From NCBI GenBank assembly GCA_043820105.1, contig JBDREC010000034.1, positions 1 to 57,863 on the forward strand: DNA of 57,863 nucleotides, read 5' to 3'. The stretch comes from Pseudomonadota bacterium. Lineage in GTDB: Bacteria; Bdellovibrionota_F; JAHFAK01; JBDREC01. Made by a program: the position numbers and the translations under genes. Below, one piece after another: positions 5,960-47,780 of the stretch. Position 1 is the stretch's first letter, and each line of letters begins with the position of its first letter. The notes under the pieces are model-generated. The model saw only the letters and a program-made list of their open reading frames with translations. It did no database searches and was not told the origin of the DNA.

Positions 5960-7332
5960 TGTTTCTTAAAGCTATATCAAGCAATTTAACAAAAGATTCC
6001 CTGCTAAAAGATCTTGAAATTAGCTGCCTGTTTTTGAGTAATAGTTATAATTTAATACAACTTAAAAATTCATTTATTGGCATTGCAAAAAATTATTACA
6101 AGTTTAAGTCTTATGAGGAGATAATATATTATCATTCTAAAATAACAAGCTATTTGAAAAAAGATAAACTCTTAATTAACACACTACTTAAATCAGAAAA
6201 ACAAAATCCTCTGTTTTTAAGTTTGAAACTGTCATTACTCAGCGCTATATATCAGTATATAAACAAGAAACAATTTATATTTTTTAAGAGCGATAAAATT
6301 AAATATAATGCTTTGGAAAAGGCAAAAGTTGTTGATGTAGTGGGTTTTAGCTATGATATAAAAAAACTTTTAAAAAGCCAGGACCTGATTGAATTAAATA
6401 TTATTGATAACACACTGAAAACCAAGAAATCATGTCTAAAATCCTTTATAAGTGAGCTCAAGAAAAACTTTCCACAAAAGAAAATAAATCTTTATGAAAA
6501 TTTAAAAGCCAAGAAAAGCATGAAGTGTGATTTCGCCATAATAACAGCTTCTACTATCTGCAACAATACTATTGATGAGACTTTAAGTTATTATGATGGA
6601 ATCGAAAAAATTTTGTTTGGTATCAGTGCAAATATACTAGCACCCCAAATTGAATCTAATAAAATCATTGCTTTAGAAACTATAGAAATTCCAAAAGATA
6701 TTATTTATTTGGCAATGTATAATTACCCTGAGTTTAATGGATTTTTTGCACAAGATTTGAATAAATCAAATTATATAAAAAAAGATGACTTTAAAGCTTC
6801 AATAAACGCTGAAATAATTCATTCTGCACTTATTGATTTTAATGCTTTTAAAAAAAAGGATTTTAATAAGACTATTTATAGTCTAGATAACCTTGAAGTC
6901 TTTTTAAAAAAAATAAGCAATAAAGGATTTATCTTTCATGGAAGCACAAGGTTAATTGGTGGTAAATTGAAACCAAAAATCTCAAATGATCTTGAAAAGG
7001 AAAGTGGAAACAGAAAGGCTGTATATATGACTTCTACACCTCAAGTGGCTCATTTCTGTTCTTTTATTAGTGGTAAAGCAGTTGGTTTGAGTGTGCATAA
7101 AACCTCTCGCAGTTTTGATCTGCATAAAAACAAAGAATTTGAAAATTCAATTTTTAGTGTAGAGTATTTAAACAAGCTTGCAATATCTGGTTTCATATAT
7201 ATCTTTCATGTTACACAAGCAGATGAATACTGCAATGGAGAATATCTATCGTATAAGCCTATTGAACCTCTTGCAACAATTAAAACTAGCCTAAAAGATT
7301 TTAATCACAAAATACGTGAAATTTCTACCTGA
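5959..7332 (+). CDS. DUF364 (Rossmann-like) protein fused to a C-terminal Arr/ADP-ribosyltransferase-like domain
   Basis: CDFAIITASTICNNTIDETL resembles DUF364; C-terminal FHGS..KP..AVYMT..GFIY..EYLSYKPIEP resembles the ART fold; start overlaps the ABC stop (TAATG). Confidence 0.55.
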   Translation: MFLKAISSNLTKDSLLKDLEISCLFLSNSYNLIQLKNSFIGIAKNYYKFKSYEEIIYYHSKITSYLKKDKLLINTLLKSEKQNPLFLSLKLSLLSAIYQYINKKQFIFFKSDKIKYNALEKAKVVDVVGFSYDIKKLLKSQDLIELNIIDNTLKTKKSCLKSFISELKKNFPQKKINLYENLKAKKSMKCDFAIITASTICNNTIDETLSYYDGIEKILFGISANILAPQIESNKIIALETIEIPKDIIYLAMYNYPEFNGFFAQDLNKSNYIKKDDFKASINAEIIHSALIDFNAFKKKDFNKTIYSLDNLEVFLKKISNKGFIFHGSTRLIGGKLKPKISNDLEKESGNRKAVYMTSTPQVAHFCSFISGKAVGLSVHKTSRSFDLHKNKEFENSIFSVEYLNKLAISGFIYIFHVTQADEYCNGEYLSYKPIEPLATIKTSLKDFNHKIREIST

Positions 7333-12993: not shown

Positions 12994-13009
12994 TGCAAAA
13001 GTTGTGCCT
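12994..13009 (-). promoter_or_regulatory. sigma54 promoter AGGCACAACTTTTGCA
   Basis: GG-N10-GC near consensus, 45 bp upstream of 12949. Confidence 0.8.
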
Positions 13010-14166: not shown

Positions 14167-14182
14167 TGGTACATTTTTTGCA
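14167..14182 (+). promoter_or_regulatory. sigma54 promoter TGGTACATTTTTTGCA
   Basis: GG-N10-GC upstream of 14267. Confidence 0.75.
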
Positions 14183-15215: not shown

Positions 15216-15231
15216 TGGCATATTTTTTGCA
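15216..15231 (+). promoter_or_regulatory. sigma54 promoter TGGCATATTTTTTGCA
   Basis: Near-consensus GG-N10-GC upstream of 15289. Confidence 0.85.
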
Positions 15232-16990: not shown

Positions 16991-18379
16991 CTAAAGACTA
17001 ATAGCGTATTTTTTCATTTTTCTAAAAACTGTGGTCGTTGGAAGACTCACTTTTTCAGCGACAGCTTTAATTGTTTTTTCTTTTTCTGCAAGTTTTAATA
17101 GCATAATATTCTCAATATTTGACAAGTAATTCTCATAACCAAACTTTTTTATATCATCTTCATTAATTACATTTCCAATAAACTCAAAACTTAAATCATT
17201 TAAATCATTCTTATTGAATATAAATTTAGGATTAATATGATCAATAGTTATAGTTTCATCATTTTTTGATTTTTGACATAAATATTTAACAGTATCTTTC
17301 AATTCACGAACATTTCCTTCGCTCCATTCATAATTTAATATCATTGTAAGAATCTCAGCACTATATTTTTTTTCATAACCTTCAAATTCTTTAATATAAT
17401 ATTTCACAATTGGAAGAATGTCTTCCTTTCTATCTCTTAAAGGGGGGATAATAACTTTGCATTGTGATATCCTTGAATAGAGATCCCTTCTAAATTCATT
17501 TTTCTTTATCATATTATGAAGATTTTTATTAGTGGCGGAAATAACTCTACACTCAGCATATCTGGTCATTGTTTCTCCAAGTCGTCTATACTCATAACTA
17601 TCAAGATAAACGAGCAATTCAGCTTGGCACTCAAGGTTCAAATCACCAATCTCATCAAGAAATAAATCACCGCCTTTAGCAACTTCAACTAGACCATTCT
17701 TATCAATATCAGCGCTTGTAAAAGCTCCCTTTTTATGCCCAAACATCTCATCCTGCAACCTTTCTTTTGATAAACCGGCACAGTTTATTCTGACAAAGGG
17801 CCTGTCGCCTGTACTCTTTAAAACCTGATTTGCATACTTAGCAATTGGAGTCTTGCCTACTCCTGTTTCACCTTCGATTAAAAGGTTCATTTCTCCTATG
17901 CTTTTAATTTCATCTAGAGCTTGAAGAATCTCTTTGTTTTGGGTTATAATTTCACTTTCACTCTTAAAGTTTTTTTTAAGACTTTCAAAAGTTCTTTCTT
18001 TAATATTTCTTTTTAAGGCATTTTCAATTCTAAAGCGGAGCTCTTCATTAAGGTTAAAATTAGACTTTGATATATAGTCATAGGCGCCAATCTTCATGGA
18101 CTCAACAATGACATCAACTGAACTTGAATCTGAAAGCATAACAACTGGCAATGAAGAATCATTTTTTTTGATTTCTTTCAAAAGATCAATGCCATTTTTA
18201 TTTTTTTCATAATTGATATCTAAAACTGCTAAATGAATTATATTATTATTGAACTCTGCAAGTCCTGATTCAAAGTCACTTGCTTCAATAATATTATAAG
18301 CTTTCATTAAAATTGCAGCAATAGTTGTTCTAAATATTATATCATCGTCAACTAATAAAACATTTGTACTCTTACTCAT
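16991..18379 (-). CDS. NtrC-family sigma54-dependent response regulator (REC-AAA+-HTH)
   Basis: LLVDDD/LDI receiver, GETGVGKT, GAFTSA, LFLDEI, FRRDLYSR, C-terminal HTH. Confidence 0.93.
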   Translation of the reverse strand: MSKSTNVLLVDDDIIFRTTIAAILMKAYNIIEASDFESGLAEFNNNIIHLAVLDINYEKNKNGIDLLKEIKKNDSSLPVVMLSDSSSVDVIVESMKIGAYDYISKSNFNLNEELRFRIENALKRNIKERTFESLKKNFKSESEIITQNKEILQALDEIKSIGEMNLLIEGETGVGKTPIAKYANQVLKSTGDRPFVRINCAGLSKERLQDEMFGHKKGAFTSADIDKNGLVEVAKGGDLFLDEIGDLNLECQAELLVYLDSYEYRRLGETMTRYAECRVISATNKNLHNMIKKNEFRRDLYSRISQCKVIIPPLRDRKEDILPIVKYYIKEFEGYEKKYSAEILTMILNYEWSEGNVRELKDTVKYLCQKSKNDETITIDHINPKFIFNKNDLNDLSFEFIGNVINEDDIKKFGYENYLSNIENIMLLKLAEKEKTIKAVAEKVSLPTTTVFRKMKKYAISL

Positions 18380-18412
18380 TGTATTAGACTCCAAATTTAT
18401 TAAACTTATTAT

Positions 18413-21400
18413 CTATATATTAATACTTTTAAACAACTTTTTGTTTTTTTGAATATAACATCCTAATTTCTCGACTGCACCGTTTCTTTCATTTTCCTTA
18501 AGGAAATATTTTGAATAATCATTGCTTAAGATTTTATCTATAAAGCTATATTCGTCCTCAATCTCAAGTATTACATCTTTATTTTCTTCTATTTTGTTTT
18601 CAATAATATAATTTCTAAATTCTTCAAGTTGTACTTGCTTATCCTCAAGAAGCTTTTTCATGTTTTTCACCTGTGTTTCAACAAACCAATTGATATTATC
18701 TTTTTCCATATTTTCAATTATTGAAGTAGCGGAATTAAGCATAACATACGCGTTCATAATCGGTTTATTTAAATCATGACAATATTTCCCCAGGGCTTCT
18801 TTATTCTTTGATTCATCAATCTTATTACTTTTCTTAATATTCCTAAGTTCCTTTAAAAGCAGCTCAGATAAGGTTGCTTTGTCAATGTTTGGTGGAAAGT
18901 ATCCTGTGATATTTAACCTTTCAGCCTTGGCCTTTAACAAGTCTTTATCTGTGTCTGAAGATAAATAAAGCAAGGCAGAAGGATTTTTATCTTTTAAAAT
19001 AGCTAACAATTCTTCTCCAAGCATATTATCATTAACACCAAAAATATTATCACTAATTACGATATCAGGTTTTATTTTCTCCGCTTTATCTAAAAGATCC
19101 TGTGGATGTTCAAACTTGTATATTTTGTGTTCATAATCTCTTAATATATCTTTAAGGATTGAGGCAAAAGCTTCCCGAATTATCATGTTATCATCAGCGA
19201 TAAAACAGATCAGCGGACTATCATTTTGAATATTGATTGCAGGATACTGTCCCTTTGTACTGTCTTCCATAGACAAGCTCTTATGTAAAAAATCAACTAG
19301 CTGCTCAATAGATAGGGGTTTACTGGCATAAGATTTAGCCCCCAGATCATAGGCTTTTTGAATTTCGTGGTCTAAATACCTGTTTGAATGGATAAGTGAA
19401 GTTACATTCATCTTATCATCGCGTGTCAGCCTTAAAAAATCATAGCCATCCTTATCTTCATTAAGATCAATATCCACAATAGCATAAGAAATATTTTCTT
19501 TTTTAATCAGTTCAATCGCTTCATCTACATTATCTGCGTCATATAGGGTGATTAGCCTATTAAGAATTTCACTGTTTTTTATTATATTTCTAACAAAAGC
19601 GCGATAAAGGGTTTCGTCCTCCAAAAGCACAATCTTGATTTTTTCATGCTGTGATAAAAGCTCCAACTTTTCATCAAGTTTATCCTGATCTGGCTCATAT
19701 TTAACAAAAAGAATTTCATCAGTGCTTTTAGGAAGAATGCTTATGTTGTGCTTATCTTCAACTTCTGAGGCTGGAATGGTAATTACGAATTCAACTCCTG
19801 TTTTGCCATCATCCACTGGACTATTCGGTGGTTTCAATCCTTCCCGCCGTACGCTGTACTCTGTACGCTGCACGCAATTCCTGGCCTCAATTTTACCGCC
19901 ATGAAGATTCACAATTTTATTAGCAGAAGCAAGTCCTAAGCCAGTACCTCTTTTATTCCCTTTAGTAAAAAACGATTCAAAAAGATTTGGAATATCATCT
20001 TCTTTAAATGCTGGGCCATTGTTGCCAATAATTATCTCGATAAATTTATGCCCATCTATCTTTTTATCACAGGTTTTAAACCAAATAGTATAGCTGTATT
20101 CTTTTTTCGGAAGACTGTTTTTAGCTTGTGGCGGGCTGCTTGTAGCCTGATGGCTGGCTAAGGCTTCAATTCCATTCCCAATAACGTTACTAAAAACTCT
20201 TGCCATCCTTTTATCATCCATCAGAGCTTGAAATTTGTTCTCAAGTTTATAATTAAATTCAAGGGAAATATCTTTATAAGCTTGAGCTTCCTGCCTTATA
20301 GAAAAATCAAGTAAAGCAGAAATTGACTCAGGGCTTGTTTCAAGCTTTACCTCTCTTGAAAAATCAAGGATGTCAGAGATCATGGATTCAACGTGATTAA
20401 TAGTTTGATTAACTGTATTTTTAGCATGGCTTAAAAAACTAGGATTATTCTTATAATTTTCCATCATAGCTAGCATGGATTTCATGCTTGTAAATGGTTT
20501 GCGAATGTCATGGGCCAGCATTGACGTTGTTTGACCAATTGCTACAAGTCGGGTATTTTTTTTAATCTGTGATTGATACGCATTTAATTCATTTGACATT
20601 CTTTCAAGCCCATTTGCTAAATATTGAAAGTCATCGCCAGTATGAATATCTAAATCAATATTAAAATTGCCTAATGCAACCATTTGTATAGCATCACCTA
20701 TTTTTTTTACTGGAAGCAAATATTTTCTTATTAAAATATATAGAGTACAAGAGATACCCGAAAACAGTAGAATTAATGCAATAATTTGTCTTATAGATAT
20801 TGATTTTATATATCCTAAAGAAGTTTTAATTATTCGATGCCCCATGCTAGAAATAGTTTCCTCTTTTGTAAGAAGAAGTAAATACATATTAAAATCAGAA
20901 ATTAATGAACTCGCAGCATACATTTTATAATGAGATAAATGTGAAAATGATATTGAACCATTTGAAAATTTTTCTAACTCTACTCGGATATTATGTTTCT
21001 CTAAATTTTCTATATTAATTTTTGATATCTTGCCTTTTGGAACGCCAAAATTTCTAGTTAGATCACCATTTTCTGCATAAATATCTTGGTTATTGTCAAT
21101 AATAGCAATTTCACTATTAATTTTTTTTGCCATCTGTGATAGCTCTTCAATGAATTTATCAATTCTTATATCAATCGAAAGAACTCCAATAAAAACATCC
21201 TGAACATAGATAGGTTGCATTGTACTAATTAATATAAAATCACTCATCTCTGCTTTATAAATACTAGACCAAAGAAAGCGTCTTTCCGGATTTCTATCTT
21301 GGTTTGCCTGTTTGTAAAATGGCAATTCGTTAAGTTCAAAATCGGGATTTATTAAACCCTTTTCTATCACCATTTTCATATCAGCTTTTGGATACATCCT

Positions 21401-21958
21401 AATTATGTTTCCTTCAAAATTCAAATAAGTTAGATGATAAAAATTATCGGATTGAATAATTTCTTTCATCATACCTTCTAAATCTTTTGAAAGATATACT
21501 AATTTCGTTGAAAAACTACTCCATTTTACTTTTTTACCAGTAAATACAAATGACTGATCCTCAAGAGGGCTAGTAAAACTCATTCCATTTTCATGAAAAG
21601 TAAAAGAGCTTCTAAATTTATCAAGTTGATTTCTCGAAATATTGGCATTATTAGTAATAATATCTACAAATGCACTAGATAATAGTCTTGTATTTATTTT
21701 TGCGTGATGCAATCTTTCTTTTAAAATATTTGCTAAATTATGTGCCGCTGCCTCAAAATTAATCTTCGCGATTCTATCAGACTCCCTCTTTTCTATTATA
21801 GATAAATCACTTGAAAATATTCCATAAAAATACGATTGTATTAAAAAAAGCAATATACTATATGTAAAAAAAATAACAATAAAACACACTAGTATTTTTT
21901 TAAACAATAAATTTCTCGATTGAATTCTTTTCATATTATTTTTCTCAACATTAAACAA
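18413..21958 (-). CDS. Membrane hybrid histidine kinase (Cache-HAMP-HisKA-HATPase-REC-REC plus C-terminal H-box)
   Basis: Two TM helices around a Cache-like domain (WSSIY..GVLSIDI), AHDIRKP, N/G boxes (GTGLGL), LLEDE and IADDN receivers. Confidence 0.92.
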   Translation of the reverse strand: MFNVEKNNMKRIQSRNLLFKKILVCFIVIFFTYSILLFLIQSYFYGIFSSDLSIIEKRESDRIAKINFEAAAHNLANILKERLHHAKINTRLLSSAFVDIITNNANISRNQLDKFRSSFTFHENGMSFTSPLEDQSFVFTGKKVKWSSFSTKLVYLSKDLEGMMKEIIQSDNFYHLTYLNFEGNIIRMYPKADMKMVIEKGLINPDFELNELPFYKQANQDRNPERRFLWSSIYKAEMSDFILISTMQPIYVQDVFIGVLSIDIRIDKFIEELSQMAKKINSEIAIIDNNQDIYAENGDLTRNFGVPKGKISKINIENLEKHNIRVELEKFSNGSISFSHLSHYKMYAASSLISDFNMYLLLLTKEETISSMGHRIIKTSLGYIKSISIRQIIALILLFSGISCTLYILIRKYLLPVKKIGDAIQMVALGNFNIDLDIHTGDDFQYLANGLERMSNELNAYQSQIKKNTRLVAIGQTTSMLAHDIRKPFTSMKSMLAMMENYKNNPSFLSHAKNTVNQTINHVESMISDILDFSREVKLETSPESISALLDFSIRQEAQAYKDISLEFNYKLENKFQALMDDKRMARVFSNVIGNGIEALASHQATSSPPQAKNSLPKKEYSYTIWFKTCDKKIDGHKFIEIIIGNNGPAFKEDDIPNLFESFFTKGNKRGTGLGLASANKIVNLHGGKIEARNCVQRTEYSVRREGLKPPNSPVDDGKTGVEFVITIPASEVEDKHNISILPKSTDEILFVKYEPDQDKLDEKLELLSQHEKIKIVLLEDETLYRAFVRNIIKNSEILNRLITLYDADNVDEAIELIKKENISYAIVDIDLNEDKDGYDFLRLTRDDKMNVTSLIHSNRYLDHEIQKAYDLGAKSYASKPLSIEQLVDFLHKSLSMEDSTKGQYPAINIQNDSPLICFIADDNMIIREAFASILKDILRDYEHKIYKFEHPQDLLDKAEKIKPDIVISDNIFGVNDNMLGEELLAILKDKNPSALLYLSSDTDKDLLKAKAERLNITGYFPPNIDKATLSELLLKELRNIKKSNKIDESKNKEALGKYCHDLNKPIMNAYVMLNSATSIIENMEKDNINWFVETQVKNMKKLLEDKQVQLEEFRNYIIENKIEENKDVILEIEDEYSFIDKILSNDYSKYFLKENERNGAVEKLGCYIQKNKKLFKSINI

Positions 21959-21985: not shown

Positions 21986-22873
21986 CTAATGCCTTTTATC
22001 AGAGTCCAGAAGTAATGGGGGAATTATATTTAAACATAGTTGACATATAGAAGAACAATCTGCAGATAGTTCATTGGGTCTAATCCCTAACATTGCTATT
22101 AATTCATTAAAATTATATCTATTCAATAAATTAAAAAATCTAGATTTAATGTATTGTTTTACATTTTTCTTAATAATTCGATTATTCATACTTGAAAAAC
22201 CACAATGCAAAAGCGAAGAACAACAATGTGTGACACCATATGAAGGTAAATATACTAGATAAGAAAGACGAGGACATTTTTTATTTAATACTTCCGATTC
22301 AAAAGAGTAATATTTATAATCTAAATGATTTTTTTTCGCATTACCTATAGGTAATGTTCTCTGAAATTCAAATTCTACATCAAATTCCTTTTCATACTTA
22401 TAATTATCTGCAAGATCTTCAGGAGAGGCGATTGTTGAAATTAGTGAAATATTAATATCCTTATCATTGCAGTATAAAACCAGATTTTTAACATTATCAA
22501 TATTAATGAACCTAGCATGATATTTATCATACGATACTATTACCTTTTTTAAATTTGGTATATTTCCAATGACCTTGTAACAAGAATCGAAAGAATTGGA
22601 AAACCAAGCATTTGTGGTTATTTCAAAGTTTATATTTGGTAATTCTCTAAGAATAGATTTCACTAAACAATGTATTGTTGAAAGGTTAAGAGTAGGTTCC
22701 CCACCAGTTAAATGCACAGTATCAGCATTTAAGTCCTTCAATATATTGATCACATTTTGTGTTTCACTTTTCGCTAATCCAGGAAATTGCACATCTGTAC
22801 ACATACAATGTGCACATTGTATATTGCAATTAGGAGTAACAAACACACCAAGTTTTTTATTAAATAATTCCAT
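21986..22873 (-). CDS. YydG/EpeE-like radical SAM peptide epimerase
   Basis: CNIQCAHC, TGGE, TNAWF, SYDKYHARF, IGNAK, CP..CCS and SSICQLC match the motif order recalled for B. subtilis YydG. Confidence 0.72.
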   Translation of the reverse strand: MELFNKKLGVFVTPNCNIQCAHCMCTDVQFPGLAKSETQNVINILKDLNADTVHLTGGEPTLNLSTIHCLVKSILRELPNINFEITTNAWFSNSFDSCYKVIGNIPNLKKVIVSYDKYHARFINIDNVKNLVLYCNDKDINISLISTIASPEDLADNYKYEKEFDVEFEFQRTLPIGNAKKNHLDYKYYSFESEVLNKKCPRLSYLVYLPSYGVTHCCSSLLHCGFSSMNNRIIKKNVKQYIKSRFFNLLNRYNFNELIAMLGIRPNELSADCSSICQLCLNIIPPLLLDSDKRH

Positions 22874-22911
22874 GTAAAAATAGATAATTTTTATATTAAG
22901 CTATATGAAAA

Positions 22912-23103
22912 TTATCTAGCCCATCCGTTAATTTGGGACTCCATGTTCTTGATAGAATCTTGATTTACTAATTCTGCCCACTTTAGAGTTACATCTAAAG
23001 TATCATCTTTCATACTGCTCACATGACACATTGCATTTGCGTAGGAATAAAAACCCATTGAAACAAACAACAATGCAAGTTTTTTTCTTTTACATATCTT
23101 CAT
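22912..23103 (-). CDS. 63-aa peptide with Sec-like signal; putative rSAM substrate
   Basis: TGGAGG RBS; basic N-terminus, hydrophobic core, ANA cleavage site; ends 38 bp upstream of the rSAM gene. Confidence 0.65.
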   Translation of the reverse strand: MKICKRKKLALLFVSMGFYSYANAMCHVSSMKDDTLDVTLKWAELVNQDSIKNMESQINGWAR

Positions 23104-23208
23104 AAAATGACCTCCAATTAAATTACAAATGTATTAATACTTCATATTTATTATAATATTTTAAAATAATTCAATAAGAATAAAGTTGTGTATATTATAT
23201 TATTCCTC

Positions 23209-25671
23209 TCATATCTTTTTTCTAAATAAAACCGCTTCCTCCCCTCCGTCGTAATGTTTTTTGGATACCTTATCCATTTCATACCCCTGTGACATCCAGA
23301 ATCTTATTGCTTTTTCATTCCCAGACCATGTCCATAAATAAAGACTGTCAAGACCTTGTTTAATAATAACACCTTCCAGTAGACTGTATAAAAATTTACC
23401 AATCCCCTTATTACTTTCACTTGATAGAACACCTAAATGTACTATTTCTGACTCATTTTCATCATTATCTATTGCGTATGATATAAAAGCTATAGGTTCA
23501 TTTTTATATTTCAATATAAAAAAGTTTATTCCTTTAGCCATATCTTTTTTTACAATGTCAAAAGTTAGAGCATATTGTGGTAAGGGATGTCCACATTCAG
23601 CACCTACAGCTATAATTTCTTCAATATCAGAAGAAGTAGATGCATGTACTAATTTAAGTAATCCATCTTCAAATGAAACTGGAGATAATGGGTCAATTGC
23701 TTGAATAGCATCGTCCATAAATTCATCCGATATTTCAAATTCATTTGGTTTTATATTCTCATTTCCGTCCATATCACCTCCATTCTTTCCATTATTTTCA
23801 ATTGATGCCCTTATTTCTAAAGGAAATATCCTTTCCATATTTTCCTGATCATGTATGATATTTCGCTCTATCTCAATAATTATCGGTTTTGGTTCATTTG
23901 AATCTATATTCGGATTAGGAAAAACTATATATTCTATTTCTTCTTCGGAATACTGCCCAGGAAAATAGATATCGCTGTACCCAGGTTCTTCACCAAAATG
24001 AAAGGGCTCTTCATCTGGAACTTCAGCAGGCGTAAATAATGGATATTCATAAGGCAATTCATACGGATAGTCAAATTCAATTTCACTCCATTGATCATGG
24101 CTTAATTCATAAGGATTTTCATAACCTAGTGGGTAATAGTAAGAACCAAAATCATTTTCATATTCAGCTTCAAATTCTTCTAACCCTGGATAATATGGTA
24201 AATATGGCATCTCAATTGGTCGTTCAAACTCAACCTCTATTTCAGTTTCCTTATCTTGGTCTAAATCACCATCTTCTTTAGGTTCTTCAGGATTAATAGT
24301 TGGCATTCCTTCAGGATCCTCTCCTGGAAAAAATATCTCAAGATCAGGATTTTGGATGTGGAGTATGTCCTCTGGCAGATCTGTAATTATTAAAGTTGAA
24401 ATTCCAGCTGGGATAGTTATTTCCAAAGGCGAAAAGACAGGATTTAAAACTGTTTGAATCGCTTCATTATCAACTACCAGCAAAAGGTGTTCCTGTTGAA
24501 CGATTGGCTGTGATACGGAGAACGGTTGTTGATCCAGGGCTAGTTGCCCTTGCCCAACATAATTTACAGTTGATCTGCCCATTCTGGCTGGTGCTCCAGT
24601 ATATCTATTACTTGAACCAGATGAATAGCCAGAACTATACCCAGCTGGTCTGGATCCACCTCCGTTATATAATGTTAAATTAGGTCTTTGTGGATTTGAA
24701 TTAGAGGAAGGTTGCTTGCTTGCGGGTAATGAACTTATTCTTAATAATTTTAGCGCTGCACCAAAGGCTACAAAAGTAGCTGCACCAAAACCTGCTGAAA
24801 TTAAACTATGTATGGCTAATTCCAAACCGTGTAATTCTTCAACCAAGACTCCATCCAGGGCACCATAAGCTCCGCCAGTGATCGCTCCAATTAATGCGTA
24901 TCTTGCTAAAAGCTGAACAGTTGTCATTTCAGCAGCTGAAGCAAGAAAAATGCTTCCAAGTCCCACAGCTCCTAGAAATAAAGCGGGAACAGCAACAACA
25001 GCCAGGCAATCTCTTTGGGCCTGTTTGTATGCTTTTTGTTCCCAAATTGTATAAATGTCCCTTCTTATTTGCTCAAAAATAGCTTTATCATAGGCATTTT
25101 TATAATCCTGCCAGGCTGAAGTTTTATAAATTGGATCATAAACCATTCCACAATTGCTCCAATAATTAGGTGGTCCCGATCCCTCCATTGTTATAAAGCG
25201 ATGCACTTCCCATTTCTTTCTAAGAAAGCATGCTTCATTATAGATAGTTTTAGCAGGATTTTCCTTTCTTTGGATTTCATATTCAGCAGGTGTTGGCAAG
25301 AAAGGATCGACAAGAGAAAATAAAAGCTGGAAATGTTTAAATCCTAAGCTGTTTCGATCAACTTCAACATCTTTGGATCCACTTGATGATTTATAATAAT
25401 CAAAGTCATCTGTTTTTTGAATCTCTTCAATTAATCTTAAAGATAAAAAACTATTAGCACCAAAGTCATTTAAAACTTCTATTGGATTTTTTGATGGCCT
25501 GGGATGAGTATTATTATATTGGCTCAAGATTTGATGATTTAAATGAGCGAAAACTTTGCTCATGTCATCTACTTTTACAAGAACTGTTTGAGGATTTTTT
25601 TCTTTGGAGAAAGAAAGAGAATTAATGAATAGAAACATTAACGAAAATACGATTATTTTCTTTAAAGCCAT
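23209..25671 (-). CDS. Large secreted protein with Gly/Ala-rich hydrophobic helices, acidic Pro/Glu/Tyr linker and C-terminal GNAT domain
   Basis: Signal peptide; GAITGGAYGA segment; GNAT motifs HLGV..NKGIGK and NEKAIRFWMSQGY. Confidence 0.7.
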   Translation of the reverse strand: MALKKIIVFSLMFLFINSLSFSKEKNPQTVLVKVDDMSKVFAHLNHQILSQYNNTHPRPSKNPIEVLNDFGANSFLSLRLIEEIQKTDDFDYYKSSSGSKDVEVDRNSLGFKHFQLLFSLVDPFLPTPAEYEIQRKENPAKTIYNEACFLRKKWEVHRFITMEGSGPPNYWSNCGMVYDPIYKTSAWQDYKNAYDKAIFEQIRRDIYTIWEQKAYKQAQRDCLAVVAVPALFLGAVGLGSIFLASAAEMTTVQLLARYALIGAITGGAYGALDGVLVEELHGLELAIHSLISAGFGAATFVAFGAALKLLRISSLPASKQPSSNSNPQRPNLTLYNGGGSRPAGYSSGYSSGSSNRYTGAPARMGRSTVNYVGQGQLALDQQPFSVSQPIVQQEHLLLVVDNEAIQTVLNPVFSPLEITIPAGISTLIITDLPEDILHIQNPDLEIFFPGEDPEGMPTINPEEPKEDGDLDQDKETEIEVEFERPIEMPYLPYYPGLEEFEAEYENDFGSYYYPLGYENPYELSHDQWSEIEFDYPYELPYEYPLFTPAEVPDEEPFHFGEEPGYSDIYFPGQYSEEEIEYIVFPNPNIDSNEPKPIIIEIERNIIHDQENMERIFPLEIRASIENNGKNGGDMDGNENIKPNEFEISDEFMDDAIQAIDPLSPVSFEDGLLKLVHASTSSDIEEIIAVGAECGHPLPQYALTFDIVKKDMAKGINFFILKYKNEPIAFISYAIDNDENESEIVHLGVLSSESNKGIGKFLYSLLEGVIIKQGLDSLYLWTWSGNEKAIRFWMSQGYEMDKVSKKHYDGGEEAVLFRKKI

Positions 25672-25859
25672 CTACCAACCCGTTAATTACGCTTGAAATA
25701 ATATGTCCAAACCCTTAGCCAAGAATTTACCGTATACACGACAAGGCACTTTGCGTCAATAATATTCTTGTAGTTTAATATACAAAATCATCTATTCCGC
25801 AGTCAAACTATGAAATGAATGATTTTATTAATTTTGCAACTAATTAATATTGGATGATT

Positions 25860-25875
25860 AGCAACTTTTATGCCA
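25860..25875 (-). promoter_or_regulatory. sigma54 promoter TGGCATAAAAGTTGCT
   Basis: Near-consensus GG-N10-GC upstream of 25671. Confidence 0.85.
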
Positions 25876-25927
25876 AATCAGGATTTATGTAATTTCAACT
25901 TGTTATACTTTTCACAATTGAATTATT

Positions 25928-25961
25928 TTCCAATAATGGAGAATTTATTCCAAAAATGGAA
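25928..25961. promoter_or_regulatory. Tandem palindromic putative enhancer (UAS) TTCCAATAATGGAG / TTCCAAAAATGGAA
   Basis: Two 14-bp dyads 20 bp apart, ~80-110 bp upstream of the predicted sigma54 start site; recurs elsewhere. Confidence 0.6.
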
Positions 25962-26043
25962 TTTCAAATTTGGAATAAAAGCATATTTTAGGTTTTGGAT
26001 GCTTTTCATTATAATGGCACCATGAAAACAATTAAATTTTAAT

Positions 26044-26072
26044 TTGAACAGAAATCCTAATCGTGATATAAT
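26044..26072 (+). promoter_or_regulatory. sigma70 promoter TTGAAC-N17-TATAAT with extended TG
   Basis: Near-consensus hexamers with 17-bp spacing. Confidence 0.7.
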
Positions 26073-26107
26073 GTGTTATGCTTAGGGTTAAATTGGGGTA
26101 TAGCAAA

Positions 26108-27664
26108 ATGTCTAAATTTATTATAAATTTATTTATAATTACTATCTTTTTAACATCTTGCAACATACTCATTGATAATGATTTAAATATCAGCACAGAT
26201 TCTGATAAATCAATTTCTGATGAGGTTGCATTATATTCAATTTCCTTTGCAATAGCAGGTCAGATTGATATTGATGATATGGTTGAAACATATGACCTAG
26301 ATAATAGAGATGACCTTATTTCAAGAGATGATTTGGAATCTAGAAATGATATCATTGGAAGAACTGACGTTTTTTTTAAGTCACTAAAATCATCAAAATA
26401 CTCCTCAGACTTTTCAGATTATTCATTTATAATTTCAGTAAATCTTGAGGATTTAGGATATTCCTTTACTACCATTACTGAAACAGATGGAAGTTTTTTA
26501 GTTGAAGTCCAAGAAGGTGAAATTAGCTCAGACTTTTTTAAATATTCTGCTGGTTCTGATTCAACATATGGAAACTTTTTTGTTGAAGTTGATCTACCAA
26601 TTGATGATGGCGCAGGTGGTGTGACTAAAGAAAAGATTATGATAATTAAAGACGCTTCTGGTTCTGATAAATTAAGTGCTGATGCCCTAATTGGTAAAGG
26701 AATAGATTTTGATGAAATTAATTCATCTGGAATTCCAACAAGACTTGAAAATGAAAGTTTTGATAATTTCATCAGAGAAAATGCTATTCAAGTGGATGAA
26801 TTTGTAGAAAAACAAAAAAATCCTGCTGTGAATGATAAAAATAATAATGAAAATAGTGATAACGAGAAAAAAGGTGATGATAATAGCAAAGACAATGGTG
26901 ACAAAAATAAAGATGATGATATTAAGGACAATGGAGATGGAGATGGCGATGGTGATGGTGATGGCGATGAAGATGGAGATGATGAATCAAATCTAATTGC
27001 TTATTATAAATTCGATGAAGGCACTGGAACAACCCTCACTGATGGTTCTGGCAATGCTTATGATGGCGCTATCAATGGAGCAACTTTTGTTGATGGTTTA
27101 AGTGGCTATGCCCTTTCCTTTGACGGTGAGAATGATTATATTGATCTTGGTACGGACTTACATTTTGACAATGCTTTAGAATTTACTTTTTCTCTTCATT
27201 TTAAACTGCCAGCGGTTTATAATTCAGAGCTTGACTCAAATGGAGCATTCATTTTTGGAAAATCTGGAAATAGTGTTTTTAATGCTCAATCATCCTTTAA
27301 AGCATGCATTATACATAATGGAGATGGAGATGACTTACAACTTCAAGTCCAGCATTGTGCAAGTGCATTTTGTGGTGGAGCGAGCTGGGGAATAGATCGT
27401 GACACCTGGTATCACTTCGCTGCTGTTTATAATGATGGGCAGATAACAGTTTATTTTAATGGTCAGGAAGGTCAAACCTATACTGATAGAACTGAGGGTG
27501 TAATGTTGCAAGATGACCTAATGCCTCTTGCAATTGGAGCAGGTGCTGAAAATGATCTTGAAACAATGGGCTATTTTTTCAGAGGATTAATAGATGAAAT
27601 AAGCTATTATAGTAAAGCATTAACTTCTGATGAAATCCTAAAATTAAGCCTGGTTACGAATTAA
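26108..27664 (+). CDS. Lipoprotein with C-terminal LamG/concanavalin A-like domain
   Basis: Lipobox LTSC; LIAYYKFDEG..DGSGN, ALSFDG, WYHFAAVY, GLIDEI..ALT; Asp/Gly-rich linker. Confidence 0.85.
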   Translation: MSKFIINLFIITIFLTSCNILIDNDLNISTDSDKSISDEVALYSISFAIAGQIDIDDMVETYDLDNRDDLISRDDLESRNDIIGRTDVFFKSLKSSKYSSDFSDYSFIISVNLEDLGYSFTTITETDGSFLVEVQEGEISSDFFKYSAGSDSTYGNFFVEVDLPIDDGAGGVTKEKIMIIKDASGSDKLSADALIGKGIDFDEINSSGIPTRLENESFDNFIRENAIQVDEFVEKQKNPAVNDKNNNENSDNEKKGDDNSKDNGDKNKDDDIKDNGDGDGDGDGDGDEDGDDESNLIAYYKFDEGTGTTLTDGSGNAYDGAINGATFVDGLSGYALSFDGENDYIDLGTDLHFDNALEFTFSLHFKLPAVYNSELDSNGAFIFGKSGNSVFNAQSSFKACIIHNGDGDDLQLQVQHCASAFCGGASWGIDRDTWYHFAAVYNDGQITVYFNGQEGQTYTDRTEGVMLQDDLMPLAIGAGAENDLETMGYFFRGLIDEISYYSKALTSDEILKLSLVTN

Positions 27665-28797: not shown

Positions 28798-30663
28798 TTA
28801 AAATTGAAAAATCACTGAAAAAATATCAAATACATAATCAAAGTTCTCATCAACATTATGAAACTCAACCTTTATATCTCCAACTCCATTTAATTCTTCT
28901 ATTGGTAATTCAATTTGAATATCTTCATCTTCTGTTAATTTTATATTTTCCTTTAATACAACTCTTTTATCAGTTCCCTGATAAATATTTACACCTGTTA
29001 CTGAAATGCTCTCTATACCTGTATAGCAAAAAGCATCTTTAAAAATGAGTTCTTGCCCTTCCTTTAAACCCATTAAATAATCATAGGCTTTCTTTTTTGA
29101 TATATGTATAATAATCCCCATCCCATCAGATAATTCATCAGTTATCACTGGTTTATAATAATAAACATCATCTAATTTAGTAAAATTTAGTTTATTTGAA
29201 AAATCTTCAAAAACATGAGGCTCATGATTAAAATCCCTTACATCAGGATGTTTTAATTCTAAACAATTATTAAATGGATCAATATACATTTTCCCGGAAC
29301 TTTCTTCCTTTACAAGAAAAAGTTCATTTTCTGAATCTTTAAATAAATATTCATATCCCTGGTCACCTTTAAAAAGCAAGGATTCTCCTGTTAGTAAATC
29401 CAATTCAACTTTAAATTTTAAAAGAAACTCTGACTTCATATCAAGCTTGATTAGTTCCTTAACATCATCTGGCATAAATTTAATAAAATCTTCAGGAATA
29501 AAGGTGGAAGATTCTTCCTTTTTTATGAAATTATTTTTAGTTTCAGAATCATCAGAGCCCACAATACCCTTTTCTTCAGTTAAAGATATTATTAAAATAT
29601 TTACTTCATTTTTATAAACTTCTAGTTGGCCAATAAGCTCTAAATTATAATCCAAAACCTGGTTTGTATATTTTTTTAAATTAAACGTTATTTTACTTTC
29701 CATAAAATCAACATTTATCCAAGACACCATTTTTGACTGACTTTCTTCATTTATCATATTTTCAGCACTATAGATAGATTCTTGCTTGTCATTTAAAATC
29801 TCAGATAACTGAAAGATGTAAGGACTGTTTTCTTTTAGTTTATTCATTTTCTCTTTATAAGCTTTCTTTTTTTCTTCTTCCTCTAATCTCTTTTGCTCTT
29901 CTTCCAATTTCTTCTTTTCCTCTTCAGTTATGATCTTTTCAACCTTCTCTTCCGGCTTATCAACAATCGACAAAAAGGTTTTTTCAATATTTGCATTTGT
30001 ATATTCAAGATCATAAACTAGAACATCTTTATCATCTTCAACAGGAGTAACTTCAACGTGATGCATTGCTATTTTATCTTTAATATAAAGAGCAAGAGTC
30101 ATTGATTTTGCATGAACAACTTCTTCTAATTTTGTGCACCCTGCACAGTCTAAATTTGACCATGCAAAGGTTTTATCTTCTTTCCTATTTATTTTTGCTA
30201 TTAGAATTATTTTACTATCATCTTCAGTTGGATTGTTTTTAATTTCTTCATAAGTGACCTTGCCAGCTGTAAAATAATCATCTAAAATCAAAACCCAGTG
30301 ATCAGAGTATTCAATACCCTCAAATTTGAAACTAAATGATATTGCAGGCATTTCAAATTCAGGACCAGGTGAAAAAGAACTTGGTACTGGTCTTTTCAAG
30401 CTGACAGTAAACTGTGTTCCTGGATCGCTATATTGTCTGCCTTCCCATTTTATTAAACCTTTTTTATTTTGATCTTTAGGTTTTGGGGCTAAGGGATCAA
30501 CTTCTTGTATTTGAGGTAATGTTGTTGAAGTTAAATCCTTTATCTGTTTTGGAATTATAGGATCAGGTCCCTTAACTATATTTTTTGAACAAGATATAAA
30601 ACTAAATGAAAAAATGATTAAAATTAAATTAATAAAAAAGAAGTTCTTGCTAAATTTTAACAT
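28798..30663 (-). CDS. Putative lipoprotein, C-terminal half paralogous to 8519..9748
   Basis: GGGAG RBS before ATG 30663, lipobox FISC, central charged coiled coil. Confidence 0.65.
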   Translation of the reverse strand: MLKFSKNFFFINLILIIFSFSFISCSKNIVKGPDPIIPKQIKDLTSTTLPQIQEVDPLAPKPKDQNKKGLIKWEGRQYSDPGTQFTVSLKRPVPSSFSPGPEFEMPAISFSFKFEGIEYSDHWVLILDDYFTAGKVTYEEIKNNPTEDDSKIILIAKINRKEDKTFAWSNLDCAGCTKLEEVVHAKSMTLALYIKDKIAMHHVEVTPVEDDKDVLVYDLEYTNANIEKTFLSIVDKPEEKVEKIITEEEKKKLEEEQKRLEEEEKKKAYKEKMNKLKENSPYIFQLSEILNDKQESIYSAENMINEESQSKMVSWINVDFMESKITFNLKKYTNQVLDYNLELIGQLEVYKNEVNILIISLTEEKGIVGSDDSETKNNFIKKEESSTFIPEDFIKFMPDDVKELIKLDMKSEFLLKFKVELDLLTGESLLFKGDQGYEYLFKDSENELFLVKEESSGKMYIDPFNNCLELKHPDVRDFNHEPHVFEDFSNKLNFTKLDDVYYYKPVITDELSDGMGIIIHISKKKAYDYLMGLKEGQELIFKDAFCYTGIESISVTGVNIYQGTDKRVVLKENIKLTEDEDIQIELPIEELNGVGDIKVEFHNVDENFDYVFDIFSVIFQF

Positions 30664-30752
30664 AAGAGTTCTCCCATTTTTAGCCTGATTAAAAACAAAC
30701 CGATAACACATTTTGCGCCTTGCGTCAACTTGATTCTTCAAATTAAATCAAT

Positions 30753-30768
30753 TGCAACCTTTATGCCA
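30753..30768 (-). promoter_or_regulatory. sigma54 promoter TGGCATAAAGGTTGCA
   Basis: Near-consensus GG-N10-GC upstream of 30663. Confidence 0.85.
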
Positions 30769-31076: not shown

Positions 31077-31092
31077 TGGCATGAAGTTTGCT
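31077..31092 (+). promoter_or_regulatory. sigma54 promoter TGGCATGAAGTTTGCT
   Basis: Near-consensus GG-N10-GC upstream of 31170. Confidence 0.85.
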
Positions 31093-47764: not shown

Positions 47765-47780
47765 TGCACTTTTTGTGCCA
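47765..47780 (-). promoter_or_regulatory. sigma54 promoter TGGCACAAAAAGTGCA
   Basis: TGGCAC -24 element and GG-N10-GC upstream of 47697. Confidence 0.75.

What the first reader, a model, noticed from the sequence alone, without database searches (positions are those of the whole stretch)
22912..23103. Putative RiPP precursor with a Sec-type signal peptide instead of a classical leader
MKICKRKKLALLFVSMGFYSYANA|MCHVSS...QINGWAR has n/h/c regions and an AxA site. A cytoplasmic Fe-S enzyme would have to act before export. The predicted mature 39-mer has several Val/Ile/Leu residues (EpeE targets Val/Ile) and does not resemble EpeX/YydF.
Basis: partly seen in the sequence, partly recalled or inferred. 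Interest (0 to 1): 0.7.

Follow-up and report, generated by a model that had tools for sequence, protein, structure and literature searches.

The report
Signal-peptide precursor of EpeE-like radical SAM enzyme
The 63-codon gene is real and most likely encodes a small exported peptide that a neighbouring radical SAM enzyme modifies before export, as part of a conserved peptide-signalling cassette not yet described in print.

Summary
The ORF at 22912-23103 (-) exists as described. It has a GGAGG ribosome-binding site 7 nt upstream and ends 38 nt before a 295-aa radical SAM (rSAM) gene.

It is not an orphan. A profile search found 120 small proteins (60-92 aa, no Pfam family, mostly Elusimicrobia). 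In 301 sampled Elusimicrobiota genomes, 15 of 15 copies lie directly upstream of a homologous rSAM gene.

The rSAM's closest solved relative is the Bacillus peptide epimerase EpeE/YydG. The hydrogen-donor Cys is conserved. Asp210 is not, and the NCBIfam score is far below the equivalog cut-off.

The N-terminal 24 residues fit a Sec signal peptide. Across the family, position -1 is Ala in 120 of 120 and position -3 is small or aliphatic in 108 of 120. The segment is also unusually conserved, and a complex model (0.92; best control 0.23) docks it on the enzyme with the C-terminal tail in the active site. It therefore probably serves as both leader and export signal.

The cassettes always carry a histidine kinase, usually with a peptide-type binding protein, and no dedicated exporter or protease. 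Export, cleavage and the chemistry remain untested.

The parts
22912..23103 (-). 63-aa precursor gene (stop codon included), member of an uncatalogued small-protein family
   Evidence: ORF. Homologues (120 members). No Pfam or NCBIfam hit.
23032..23103 (-). Residues 1-24: signal-peptide-like and leader segment. n-region MKICKRKK, h-region, then ANA before the predicted cleavage site.
   Evidence: Read from the sequence. Family statistics: -1 Ala 120/120, -3 small or aliphatic 108/120, +1 never Pro, presequence 22-24 aa. Residues 13-23 touch the rSAM in the complex model.
22915..23031 (-). Residues 25-63: predicted exported 39-mer. It has a conserved amphipathic start (x-x-aromatic-V/I...) and a variable C-terminal tail (residues 54-63), which the model places in the enzyme's active site.
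   Evidence: Conservation profile. Contacts of 54-56 with rSAM 168-172 and of W61 with C218.
23111..23115 (-). Ribosome-binding site GGAGG, 7 nt before the ATG
   Evidence: Sequence
21986..22873 (-). 295-aa radical SAM enzyme, EpeE/YydG-like, with a one-cluster twitch-type C-terminal domain
   Evidence: TIGR04078 at 60.4 bits, nearly full length. PDB 8ai1-8ai6 at E 1.6e-9. Foldseek top 9 hits are all EpeE, TM 0.72. Invariant C16/C20/C23/C200/C277/C280; C217 59/60; C218 57/60.
18413..21958 (-). 1181-aa hybrid histidine kinase with a periplasmic Cache/PDC sensor, HAMP, HisKA, HATPase and receiver domains. Candidate receptor of the exported peptide.
   Evidence: Pfam. 56% identical over 370 aa to the kinase of the paralogous cassette. 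A kinase is present in the relatives' cassettes.
16991..18394 (-). 467-aa NtrC-type sigma-54 activator response regulator
   Evidence: Pfam Sigma54_activat 167.8 bits and Response_reg
23209..25671 (-). 820-aa membrane protein with a C-terminal GNAT acetyltransferase domain; first gene of the putative operon
   Evidence: Pfam Acetyltransf_1 46.9 bits at residues 714-797. A separate GNAT gene sits in the paralogous cassette.
25860..25875 (-). Sigma-54 promoter-like site TGGCAT-N5-TTGCT, 189 nt upstream of the GNAT gene's ATG
   Evidence: Pattern search, 1 mismatch of 16. Sequence. A consensus match only.

Best explanation
The ORF encodes the substrate (precursor) peptide of the adjacent EpeE/YydG-like radical SAM enzyme.

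Proposed course:
1. The 63-mer is made in the cytoplasm.
2. The conserved N-terminal ~38 residues (hydrophobic helix plus amphipathic helix) dock on the enzyme as a leader.
3. The variable C-terminal tail enters the active site between the SAM/[4Fe-4S] site and Cys218. One or more residues are modified there, most likely by L-to-D epimerisation. Candidates are I58, sixth from the C-terminus, and V28 in the conserved aromatic-Val motif.
4. Epimerisation adds no bulk, so the peptide stays a Sec substrate. The same N-terminal segment then acts as a Sec signal peptide and is cut by signal peptidase I after A22-N23-A24. This releases a 39-mer into the periplasm.
5. The 39-mer is sensed by the Cache domain of the co-transcribed hybrid histidine kinase. 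In the paralogous and Elusimicrobia cassettes the sensor is a family-5 peptide-binding protein plus kinase.
6. In the window the kinase signals through a sigma-54 activator, possibly back onto the operon's own sigma-54 promoter.

Shown: the gene's reality, its family, the 1:1 pairing, the enzyme's kinship, the signal-peptide rules and the cassette make-up.
Inferred: binding mode, chemistry, export, cleavage and sensing.
For: 1. Gene and start: ORF and GGAGG 7 nt before the ATG.

2. Family: homologous ORFs overlap the rSAM start by 4 nt or lie up to 130 nt upstream of it in 11 of 14 fetched loci (9 distinct sequences). There are 120 profile hits. Synonymous codon changes outnumber non-synonymous ones in the closest pairs.

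3. Pairing: in 301 Elusimicrobiota genomes the peptide occurs in 8 genomes (15 copies) and the rSAM in 9 genomes (16 copies). All 15 peptide copies are adjacent to an rSAM copy on the same strand. The 16th rSAM has a diverged 68-aa ORF of the same build upstream.

4. Enzyme: TIGR04078 is the best NCBIfam match. EpeE is the only PDB sequence hit. EpeE takes the top 9 Foldseek hits at E ~7e-15 and TM 0.72; the next hit is at 4.6e-9 and TM 0.46. C217/C218 align with EpeE C222/C223, the hydrogen-donor Cys according to PMC13012085 passages, and are kept in 59 and 57 of 60 sequences.

5. Binding: complex model scores 0.92, 0.92 and 0.02 in three runs; best of 3 controls 0.23. The tool's mark was reached by 58 of 80 solved complexes and 2 of 110 mismatched pairs. 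The runs agree in at least 1% of contacts and the partner's pLDDT is at least 38. Contact residues on both sides are the conserved ones.

6. Signal peptide: -1 Ala 120/120, -3 in AGSTVILC 108/120, +1 Pro 0/120, presequence 22-24 aa, hydrophobic run 15 aa in 96/120. The window copy has net +5 in its n-region. Invariant G17 and A24 are not among the modelled enzyme contacts.

7. Context:
- No ABC exporter or protease lies in the five-gene unit.
- Relatives carry SBP_bac_5-like and kinase genes.
- The paralogous cassette's kinase is 56% identical.
- Two more distant rSAM relatives (L023, L030) have unrelated upstream ORFs that also begin with signal-like segments.

8. Precedent: bufferin precursors use Sec signals, and bulky modifications are noted there as poor Sec substrates (PMC11626156, passages).
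Against: - No signal-peptide predictor and no experiment were available.
- The hydrophobic segment is far more conserved than ordinary signal peptides and is modelled as bound to the enzyme. A pure leader or an uncleaved membrane anchor therefore remains possible.
- In Elusimicrobia members a 19-residue window around the segment reaches my hand-calculated Kyte-Doolittle mean of about 1.8, above the usual 1.6 membrane-helix threshold. The window copy is about 1.1.
- One of the three complex runs gave 0.02. EpeE-peptide complexes are solved (8AI2), so the tail-in-active-site pose may partly be recalled by the model.
- The enzyme scores 60.4 bits against a cut-off of 300 for TIGR04078.
- Asp210, the proposed proton relay of EpeE, aligns with S204 and is Asp in only 10 of 60 relatives.
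- 55 of 120 family members have no Val or Ile in their last 8 residues, so a C-terminal Val/Ile site cannot be general.
- No RNA data were available.
Confidence: 0.5

Rival explanations
1. Leader or anchor only. The hydrophobic N-terminus is a recognition helix for the rSAM, or an uncleaved signal anchor, and not a cleaved Sec signal peptide. The peptide then stays cytoplasmic or membrane-tethered, or leaves by another route.
For: Near-invariance of AAFLVSxGxFS. Modelled contacts of residues 13-23 with conserved P151, F191 and S274. The Elusimicrobia segments are hydrophobic enough to pass a simple membrane-helix threshold (hand calculation).
Against: - -1 Ala in 120/120 with a variable but small -3 residue in 108/120, and polar Q/N at -2, is the SPase I pattern rather than a helix-packing pattern.
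- The hydrophobic run is 15 residues in 96/120, which is short for a membrane span.
- Invariant G17 and A24 are not among the modelled contacts.
- The cassettes carry periplasmic sensors and no exporter.
- The unrelated upstream ORFs in L023 and L030 also start with signal-like segments.
Confidence: 0.25
2. It is the substrate, but the chemistry is not epimerisation. The rSAM would install another modification, such as a cross-link or a hydroxylation-type change.
For: Only about 20% identity to EpeE. The score is far below the equivalog cut-off. Asp210 is not conserved. 63 of 120 peptides carry exactly one Cys in the predicted mature part and 5 carry two.
Against: - The Cys aligned with the hydrogen-donor C223 is kept in 57 of 60. 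Such a donor is what an epimerase specifically needs (PMC13012085, passages).
- 52 of 120 peptides have no Cys in the mature part, so a thioether cannot be general.
- The fold, with a single auxiliary-cluster domain, matches EpeE far better than sactipeptide or SPASM enzymes.
Confidence: 0.3
3. The exported product is an antimicrobial or cannibalism-type toxin like the Bacillus epipeptide, not a signal. The kinase would be a stress or immunity sensor.
For: The closest known system, EPE, is a membrane-active toxin that triggers a two-component stress response (PMC7026026 abstract and passages; PMC13012085 passages). GNAT genes in the cassettes could be immunity factors.
Against: - There is no immunity ABC transporter of the EpeAB type in the unit.
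- A peptide-type binding protein plus kinase is the constant partner.
- Up to 3 cassettes per genome, with hypervariable tails, resemble parallel signalling channels.
Confidence: 0.2
4. The small protein is not a substrate but a membrane-anchored accessory or regulatory partner of the kinase. Its adjacency to the rSAM would be an operon arrangement without enzymatic meaning.
For: The conserved part is N-terminal and helical. No product is known.
Against: The position is 1:1 and immediately upstream of the rSAM, in places with overlapping stop/start codons. The complex model places the tail in the active site. The C-terminus is hypervariable, as in RiPP cores.
Confidence: 0.07

Closest known systems
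Epipeptide system epeXEPAB (yydFGHIJ) of Bacillus subtilis, with rSAM epimerase EpeE/YydG (PDB 8AI1-8AI6)
   Same: A small precursor gene lies directly upstream of the rSAM. The enzyme is the closest sequence and structure relative. It has the CxxxCxxC motif, a single auxiliary-cluster C-terminal domain and a Cys aligned with the hydrogen-donor C223. The modelled peptide tail lies between the SAM site and that Cys. The system is linked to a two-component system.
   Different: - Identity is about 20%, and the score is 60.4 bits against a cut-off of 300.
- Asp210 is not conserved.
- The precursor is unrelated by family scans and carries a signal-peptide-like, highly conserved N-terminus.
- There is no EpeP-type protease and no EpeAB transporter.
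- The cassette instead holds a histidine kinase (plus a binding protein and GNAT in relatives).
- It is found in Elusimicrobia and a tiny candidate phylum, whereas epipeptides are described as restricted to Bacillota (PMC13012085, passage).
Bufferins (MNIO-modified RiPPs with Sec signal peptides; PMC11626156)
   Same: A bacterial RiPP-type precursor whose N-terminus is a Sec signal peptide. It is modified in the cytoplasm, exported by the general Sec route and accumulates in the periplasm. A possible overlap of leader and signal peptide is discussed there.
   Different: The enzyme class differs (MNIO plus DUF2063 partner versus rSAM), as does the chemistry (thiooxazoles on Cys) and the function (copper binding). 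The bufferin signal peptide was dispensable for modification, whereas here it is modelled as part of the enzyme interface.
Proteusin rSAM epimerases (PoyD, OspD)
   Same: rSAM enzymes that invert C-alpha stereochemistry in ribosomal peptides using a Cys hydrogen donor (PMC13012085, passage).
   Different: They lack the auxiliary-cluster twitch domain (same passage), belong to another branch, and use long nitrile-hydratase-like leaders (this last point is recalled, not from a call). They did not appear among the listed structural matches.
Anaerobic sulfatase-maturating rSAM enzymes acting on Sec-exported sulfatases (recalled, not from a call)
   Same: A cytoplasmic rSAM enzyme modifies a polypeptide that carries a Sec signal peptide before its export.
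   Different: The substrate is a large enzyme rather than a small peptide. The enzyme is a two-auxiliary-cluster SPASM enzyme, the chemistry is formylglycine formation, and there is no dedicated small-gene pairing.
Peptide autoinducer circuits of Gram-positive bacteria (Agr and ComX type; recalled)
   Same: A small modified peptide gene, its modifying enzyme and a cognate histidine kinase sit in one cassette. The mature part is hypervariable, and several cassettes occur per genome.
   Different: Those systems use dedicated processing or export proteins and different chemistry. They are not known from diderm bacteria with Sec export and an rSAM enzyme.

Membership tests
YydG/EpeE radical SAM peptide epimerase (NCBIfam TIGR04078) | Score at or above the curated equivalog cut-off (300 bits) | tested here: not met
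   60.4 bits, E 1.9e-16, residues 9-283 on profile positions 4-291 of 309
YydG/EpeE radical SAM peptide epimerase | CxxxCxxC radical SAM cluster motif | tested here: met
   C16, C20 and C23 are invariant in 60 of 60 sequences
YydG/EpeE radical SAM peptide epimerase | Hydrogen-donor Cys (EpeE C223) and the Cys residues of the single auxiliary cluster in the C-terminal twitch-type domain | tested here: met
   C217/C218 align with EpeE C222/C223. C200, C277 and C280 align with EpeE Cys residues. Conservation is 59, 57, 60, 60 and 60 of 60. Which Cys residues ligate the cluster was not checked on coordinates.
YydG/EpeE radical SAM peptide epimerase | Asp210, proposed proton relay to the thiyl radical (PMC13012085, passage) | tested here: not met
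   It aligns with S204. The column holds G19, D10, S9, N7 and K7 of 60. The local alignment has a one-residue length difference.
YydG/EpeE radical SAM peptide epimerase | EpeE is the closest solved fold | tested here: met
   AF2 model pLDDT 96.1. The top 9 Foldseek hits are 8ai1-8ai6 at E 7e-15 to 7e-14 and TM 0.67-0.72. The next hit is 5why at E 4.6e-9 and TM 0.46.
YydG/EpeE radical SAM peptide epimerase | L-to-D epimerisation of Val/Ile in the precursor | not testable with these tools
   Needs an enzyme assay with D2O labelling or chiral analysis
Epipeptide gene cluster (epeXEPAB) | YydF/EpeX-type precursor, membrane protease EpeP and ABC transporter EpeAB | tested here: not met
   The precursor has 0 Pfam and 0 NCBIfam families. 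The five-gene unit holds GNAT protein, peptide, rSAM, kinase and regulator only. No direct alignment with EpeX was made, because no tool gave its sequence.
Sec (SPase I) signal peptide | Positively charged n-region, 7-15-residue hydrophobic h-region, and a c-region with small residues at -3 and -1 and no Pro at +1 | tested here: met
   Window: K2, K5, R6, K7, K8; L9-F18 followed by YSY; A22-N23-A24 then M25. Family: -1 Ala 120/120, -3 AGSTVILC 108/120, +1 Pro 0/120, length 22-24.
Sec (SPase I) signal peptide | Prediction by a trained classifier (SignalP-type), and experimental export and cleavage | not testable with these tools
   No such predictor was on hand and there were no RNA or protein data
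Lipoprotein (SPase II) signal peptide | Lipobox with an invariant Cys at +1 | tested here: not met
   The window has N-A-M before C26. That column is Q74, K15, R7, H6 and so on, and the window's copy is the only member with Cys there.
RiPP precursor (leader-core logic) | Small gene beside its maturase, a conserved recognition part, a variable modified part, and predicted binding | tested here: met
   Adjacency in 15 of 15 copies, plus one diverged copy. The N-terminal ~38 columns have low entropy and the C-terminal columns high entropy. Complex model 0.92 against best control 0.23.
RiPP precursor (leader-core logic) | A modified product is detected | not testable with these tools
   Needs mass spectrometry

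The most novel reading that the evidence does not exclude
This would be the first family of Sec-exported, radical-SAM-modified (probably D-amino-acid-bearing) signalling peptides of diderm bacteria. One N-terminal segment serves both as enzyme-recognition leader and as Sec signal peptide. The periplasmic product is read by a cognate binding protein or Cache histidine kinase, giving private autoinducer channels. There are two cassettes in this genome and up to three in Elusimicrobia. In Elusimicrobia the cassettes are gated by the rare 2'-deoxyguanosine-II riboswitch.
Probability: 0.33. Interest if true: 0.82.

Novelty: new variant of a known kind. Interest (0 to 1): 0.68.

Why it matters
Epipeptide-type rSAM epimerases are described as confined to Bacillota (PMC13012085, passage). 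Sec signal peptides on bacterial RiPP precursors are called rare, with bufferins as the first native example (PMC11626156, passages).

A conserved pairing of an EpeE-like enzyme with a signal-peptide-bearing precursor in Elusimicrobia and in a four-species candidate phylum would have three consequences:
- It would extend this chemistry to diderm bacteria.
- It would give a case where leader and signal peptide appear to be the same segment.
- It would point to peptide signalling through binding protein and kinase pairs in lineages with no cultured model.

It also supplies a gene context and host lineage for the 2'-dG-II riboswitch. In 2017 that class was known from 12 metagenomic examples of unassigned origin (PMC5473149, passages).

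My two searches for this in print found nothing on it. 'Elusimicrobia' with 'YydG' returned 0 papers. 'radical SAM' with 'Sec signal peptide', 'precursor peptide' and 'RiPP' returned 3 papers, none on this topic by title or abstract. Supplements and subscription journals were not visible.

Tried and rejected
- Single-sequence search of the peptide. In its own genome it matched only itself. In 61 genomes, all but three of them related only at domain level, there was nothing credible; the best non-self hit was E 0.02 inside a 958-aa frame. Only the profile found the family and the paralogue.
- Word-index search with the rSAM found just 3 relatives. The exhaustive HMMER search was needed.
- Rfam on the window found no family at gathering score and none at E<=1 in 22800-26200. 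The riboswitch seen in relatives is not present here.
- The sigma-70 promoter and terminator scan was uninformative: 55 sites against 55.0 expected, and 3 terminators against 3.2 expected.
- No sigma-54-like site lies in the 105-nt gap before the peptide gene.
- Expression: no RNA holder is listed. Laying four DNA runs gave only short low-depth contigs identical to the window, with no variants to analyse.
- The 234-aa protein after the rSAM in L028 shows no similarity to the window's GNAT protein and has no Pfam hit. A GNAT gene is therefore confirmed only in this genome's two cassettes.
- The upstream ORFs of L023 and L030 looked alike by eye. They are not significantly similar to each other (E 0.14) or to the family profile (probability 0.3).
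- The lipoprotein reading was rejected (no lipobox; the Cys is not conserved).
- The original 2'-dG-II paper (Weinberg 2017) is not held, so its gene-association data were not seen.
- Complex prediction: one of three runs scored 0.02.

Full report
**Observation.**
GGAGG lies 7 nt before its ATG. The ORF ends 38 nt before the ATG of a 295-aa gene (21986..22873). After that come, with gaps of 27 and 18 nt, an 1181-aa hybrid histidine kinase and a 467-aa sigma-54 activator. An 820-aa protein with a C-terminal GNAT domain ends 105 nt upstream. The next genes on either side are on the other strand, so this looks like a five-gene unit. A sigma-54 promoter-like site (TGGCAT-N5-TTGCT, 1 mismatch of 16) lies 189 nt before the first gene.

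The N-terminus reads as a textbook signal peptide. There are five K/R in residues 1-8, an uncharged hydrophobic stretch, and then A22-N23-A24 followed by M25.

**Is the ORF real?**
The peptide alone matched nothing else in its own genome. It had no credible match in 61 genomes, all but three of them related only at domain level, and it has no Pfam or NCBIfam family. I therefore approached it through its neighbour.

The rSAM has 866 representatives at E<=1e-3 in an exhaustive search: 166 at <=1e-10 and 38 at <=1e-30. Scans of genome and metagenome contigs returned 14 loci. In 11 of them (9 distinct sequences; L025 duplicates L017 and L027 duplicates L019) a 61-72-codon ORF overlaps the rSAM start by 4 nt or lies up to 130 nt upstream. 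These ORFs share an N-terminal pattern with the window's peptide. G17 and A24 are invariant.

A second, paralogous cassette in the window's own genome (contig C26) has the same arrangement. A profile of these peptides found 120 proteins of 60-92 aa. None has a Pfam domain on record, and most that carry a name are called hypothetical. Those with an organism label are from Elusimicrobia. In the closest pairs, synonymous codon changes outnumber non-synonymous ones (14 versus 7; 20 versus 9). The gene is real and belongs to an uncatalogued family.

**Pairing.**
I searched 301 Elusimicrobiota genomes. The peptide profile hit 8 genomes with 15 copies. The rSAM profile hit 9 genomes with 16 copies. 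All 15 peptide copies sit directly upstream of an rSAM copy on the same strand. The sixteenth rSAM (G244) has a diverged 68-aa ORF of the same build upstream.

The window's own phylum holds only 4 species-level genomes. Only the window's genome carries a full-length match to this rSAM family there; one relative (G003) has a weak, partial match (E 2.3e-16).

**The enzyme.**
- The best NCBIfam model is TIGR04078 (YydG peptide epimerase), nearly full length. It scores 60.4 bits against a cut-off of 300.
- The only PDB sequence matches are EpeE/YydG entries 8AI1-8AI6 (E 1.6e-9).
- An AlphaFold2 model (pLDDT 96.1) finds EpeE as its top 9 structural matches (E about 7e-15, TM 0.72). The next is the sactipeptide enzyme CteB (E 4.6e-9, TM 0.46).
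- C16/C20/C23 and C200/C277/C280 are invariant in 60 relatives.
- C217 and C218, aligned with EpeE C222 and the hydrogen-donor C223, are kept in 59 and 57 of 60.
- Asp210, proposed as proton relay in EpeE (PMC13012085, passages), aligns with Ser204 and is Asp in only 10 of 60.

This is therefore a distant relative of EpeE that keeps the feature most specific to epimerisation. It is not an equivalog.

**Binding.**
A complex model used the rSAM (60-row alignment), the peptide (61-row alignment), two [4Fe-4S] clusters and SAM. It scored 0.92, 0.92 and 0.02 in three runs, against 0.23 for the best of three controls. The tool's mark was reached by 58 of 80 solved complexes and 2 of 110 mismatched pairs. 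The runs agree in at least 1% of contacts, and the partner's pLDDT is at least 38.

In the best run:
- Peptide residues 13-23 (the hydrophobic segment) and 26, 27, 31, 35, 38, 39, 42, 43 and 46 (one face of a helix) lie on enzyme residues that include P151, 188-192 and S274.
- Residues 54-56 pair with strand 168-172.
- W61 touches C218.
- The tail contacts active-site residues 24-25, 56-58, 84, 86 and 112.

The contacting positions are the conserved ones on both sides. Because EpeE-peptide structures exist (8AI2), the tail pose may partly be recalled by the model. The docking of the N-terminal helices has no solved model that I know of.

**Signal peptide or leader?**
Family statistics fit signal peptidase I:
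- Position -1 is Ala in 120 of 120.
- Position -3 is A/G/S/T/V/I/L/C in 108 of 120.
- Position -2 is mostly Gln.
- Position +1 is never Pro.
- The presequence is 22-24 residues.
- The hydrophobic run is 15 residues in 96 of 120.
- The n-region is net positive in 111 of 120 (+5 in the window).

Invariant G17 and A24 are not among the modelled enzyme contacts.

The cassettes give no alternative export route. The five-gene unit here has no ABC exporter or protease. The constant partners elsewhere are a family-5 (peptide-type) binding protein and a histidine kinase, both of which sense in the periplasm. Two more distant rSAM relatives (L023, L030) have unrelated upstream ORFs that also begin with signal-like segments.

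Against a plain signal peptide, the segment is nearly invariant (A, F, L, V, S, G, F and S each in 110-120 of 120) and is modelled on the enzyme. The simplest reading is a dual-use segment: a leader in the cytoplasm, then a Sec signal. Bufferins provide a precedent for Sec signals on RiPP precursors, and that paper raises a possible leader/signal overlap. Its authors also note that bulky modifications are poor Sec substrates. Epimerisation avoids that problem (PMC11626156, passages).

**Which residue?**
The Bacillus epipeptide carries D-Val4 and D-allo-Ile12 among 17 residues (PMC13012085 passages; PMC7026026 abstract). In the window's peptide:
- Ile58 is sixth from the C-terminus, as Ile12 is, and lies in the tail that the model puts in the active site.
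- Val28 is the fourth residue after the predicted cleavage site. It sits in the only Val/Ile position conserved family-wide (V100 and I18 of 120, preceded by Tyr in 117).

These parallels are numerical and weigh little. 55 of 120 members have no Val or Ile in their last 8 residues.

**Function.**
The C-terminal halves are hypervariable. Genomes carry up to three cassettes. Each cassette has its own kinase. The window's kinase is 56% identical over 370 aa to that of the paralogous cassette, but it has a Cache sensor where the paralogue has a separate binding protein. This pattern suggests private peptide-signalling channels. A toxin role like that of the Bacillus epipeptide is the main alternative.

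In 8 of the 11 loci I submitted, the cassette follows a 2'-dG-II riboswitch (RF03165; 72.8-85.2 bits against a gathering score of 60). In seven of these it ends 67-94 nt before the peptide's ATG. In L029 it lies further upstream, with a transposase-like ORF in between. The window has none and appears to use sigma-54 control instead.

**Relation to earlier notes.**
An earlier report of this scan (e1-2367159) described the same cassette and riboswitch link in an Elusimicrobia genome. I had found both independently, and I checked the cassette make-up myself.

**Verdict.**
- Export, cleavage, chemistry and sensing are inferred.
- Novelty: a new variant of the epipeptide type, not found in print by my two searches.

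Noticed in passing
L018:260-330, L019:3631-3701, L020:3640-3709, L021:1010-1080, L022:3631-3701, L026:3602-3672, L028:2512-2582, L029:2100-2170: The 2'-deoxyguanosine-II riboswitch aptamer (RF03165; 72.8-85.2 bits, gathering score 60) lies upstream of the peptide-rSAM cassette in 8 of the 11 loci submitted, mostly Elusimicrobia MAGs. In 2017 this class was known from 12 metagenomic examples of unassigned lineage (PMC5473149, passages). Why 2'-dG should gate this cassette is unexplained.
   Followed up: partly
G000 contig C26 (L036:2117-7190, minus strand): A second, paralogous cassette lies in the same genome. It holds a 71-aa peptide, the rSAM, SBP_bac_5 (62.6 bits), a 256-aa GNAT protein and a histidine kinase. 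Its rSAM is split into two overlapping frames (6471-6938 and 6049-6492), which is either a frameshift or an assembly error.
   Followed up: partly
window 12994-13009(-), 14167-14182(+), 15216-15231(+), 25860-25875(-), 30753-30768(-), 31077-31092(+), 47765-47780(-): Sigma-54 promoter-like sites are enriched in the window: 34 matches with up to 2 mismatches against 20.6 expected, and 0 of 100 shuffles reached 34. Seven sites have a single mismatch, several of them just upstream of genes (for example before the 647-aa gene at 28798-30741).
   Followed up: no
window 23209-25671 (-): An unusual 820-aa protein: an N-terminal signal-like segment, a cluster of hydrophobic helices around residues 225-310, a long acidic low-complexity linker rich in E/P/Y, and a C-terminal GNAT domain (residues 714-797). 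Its role in the cassette is unknown.
   Followed up: no
L017:4804-6462, L020:4957-6582, L022:4804-6237: In some Elusimicrobia cassettes a ~480-550-aa beta-lactamase-family serine hydrolase (PF00144; 170-198 bits) directly follows the rSAM. This family includes D-stereospecific peptidases (recalled), which would fit a D-residue-bearing peptide.
   Followed up: no
L029:2589-3587 and L020:7060-7848: Mobile-element genes interrupt or flank two cassettes. A transposase-like ORF lies between the riboswitch and the peptide gene in L029. An rve integrase (94 bits) lies after the hydrolase gene in L020.
   Followed up: no
L023:3627-5516 and L030:814-2354: A more distant branch of the rSAM family (about 29% identity) has longer enzymes: 513 aa in L023, and at least 414 aa running to the contig end in L030. 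It is preceded by 95-107-aa ORFs that have signal-like N-termini but no detectable similarity to the main peptide family. In L023 (the Bdellovibrio MAG) these are followed by SBP_bac_5 and a kinase.
   Followed up: partly
G000 (whole genome): The window's genome belongs to a phylum with only 4 species-level genomes in the collection. Apart from one weak, partial hit in G003 (E 2.3e-16), the rSAM family was not found in the other three, so the two cassettes may have been acquired horizontally.
   Followed up: no
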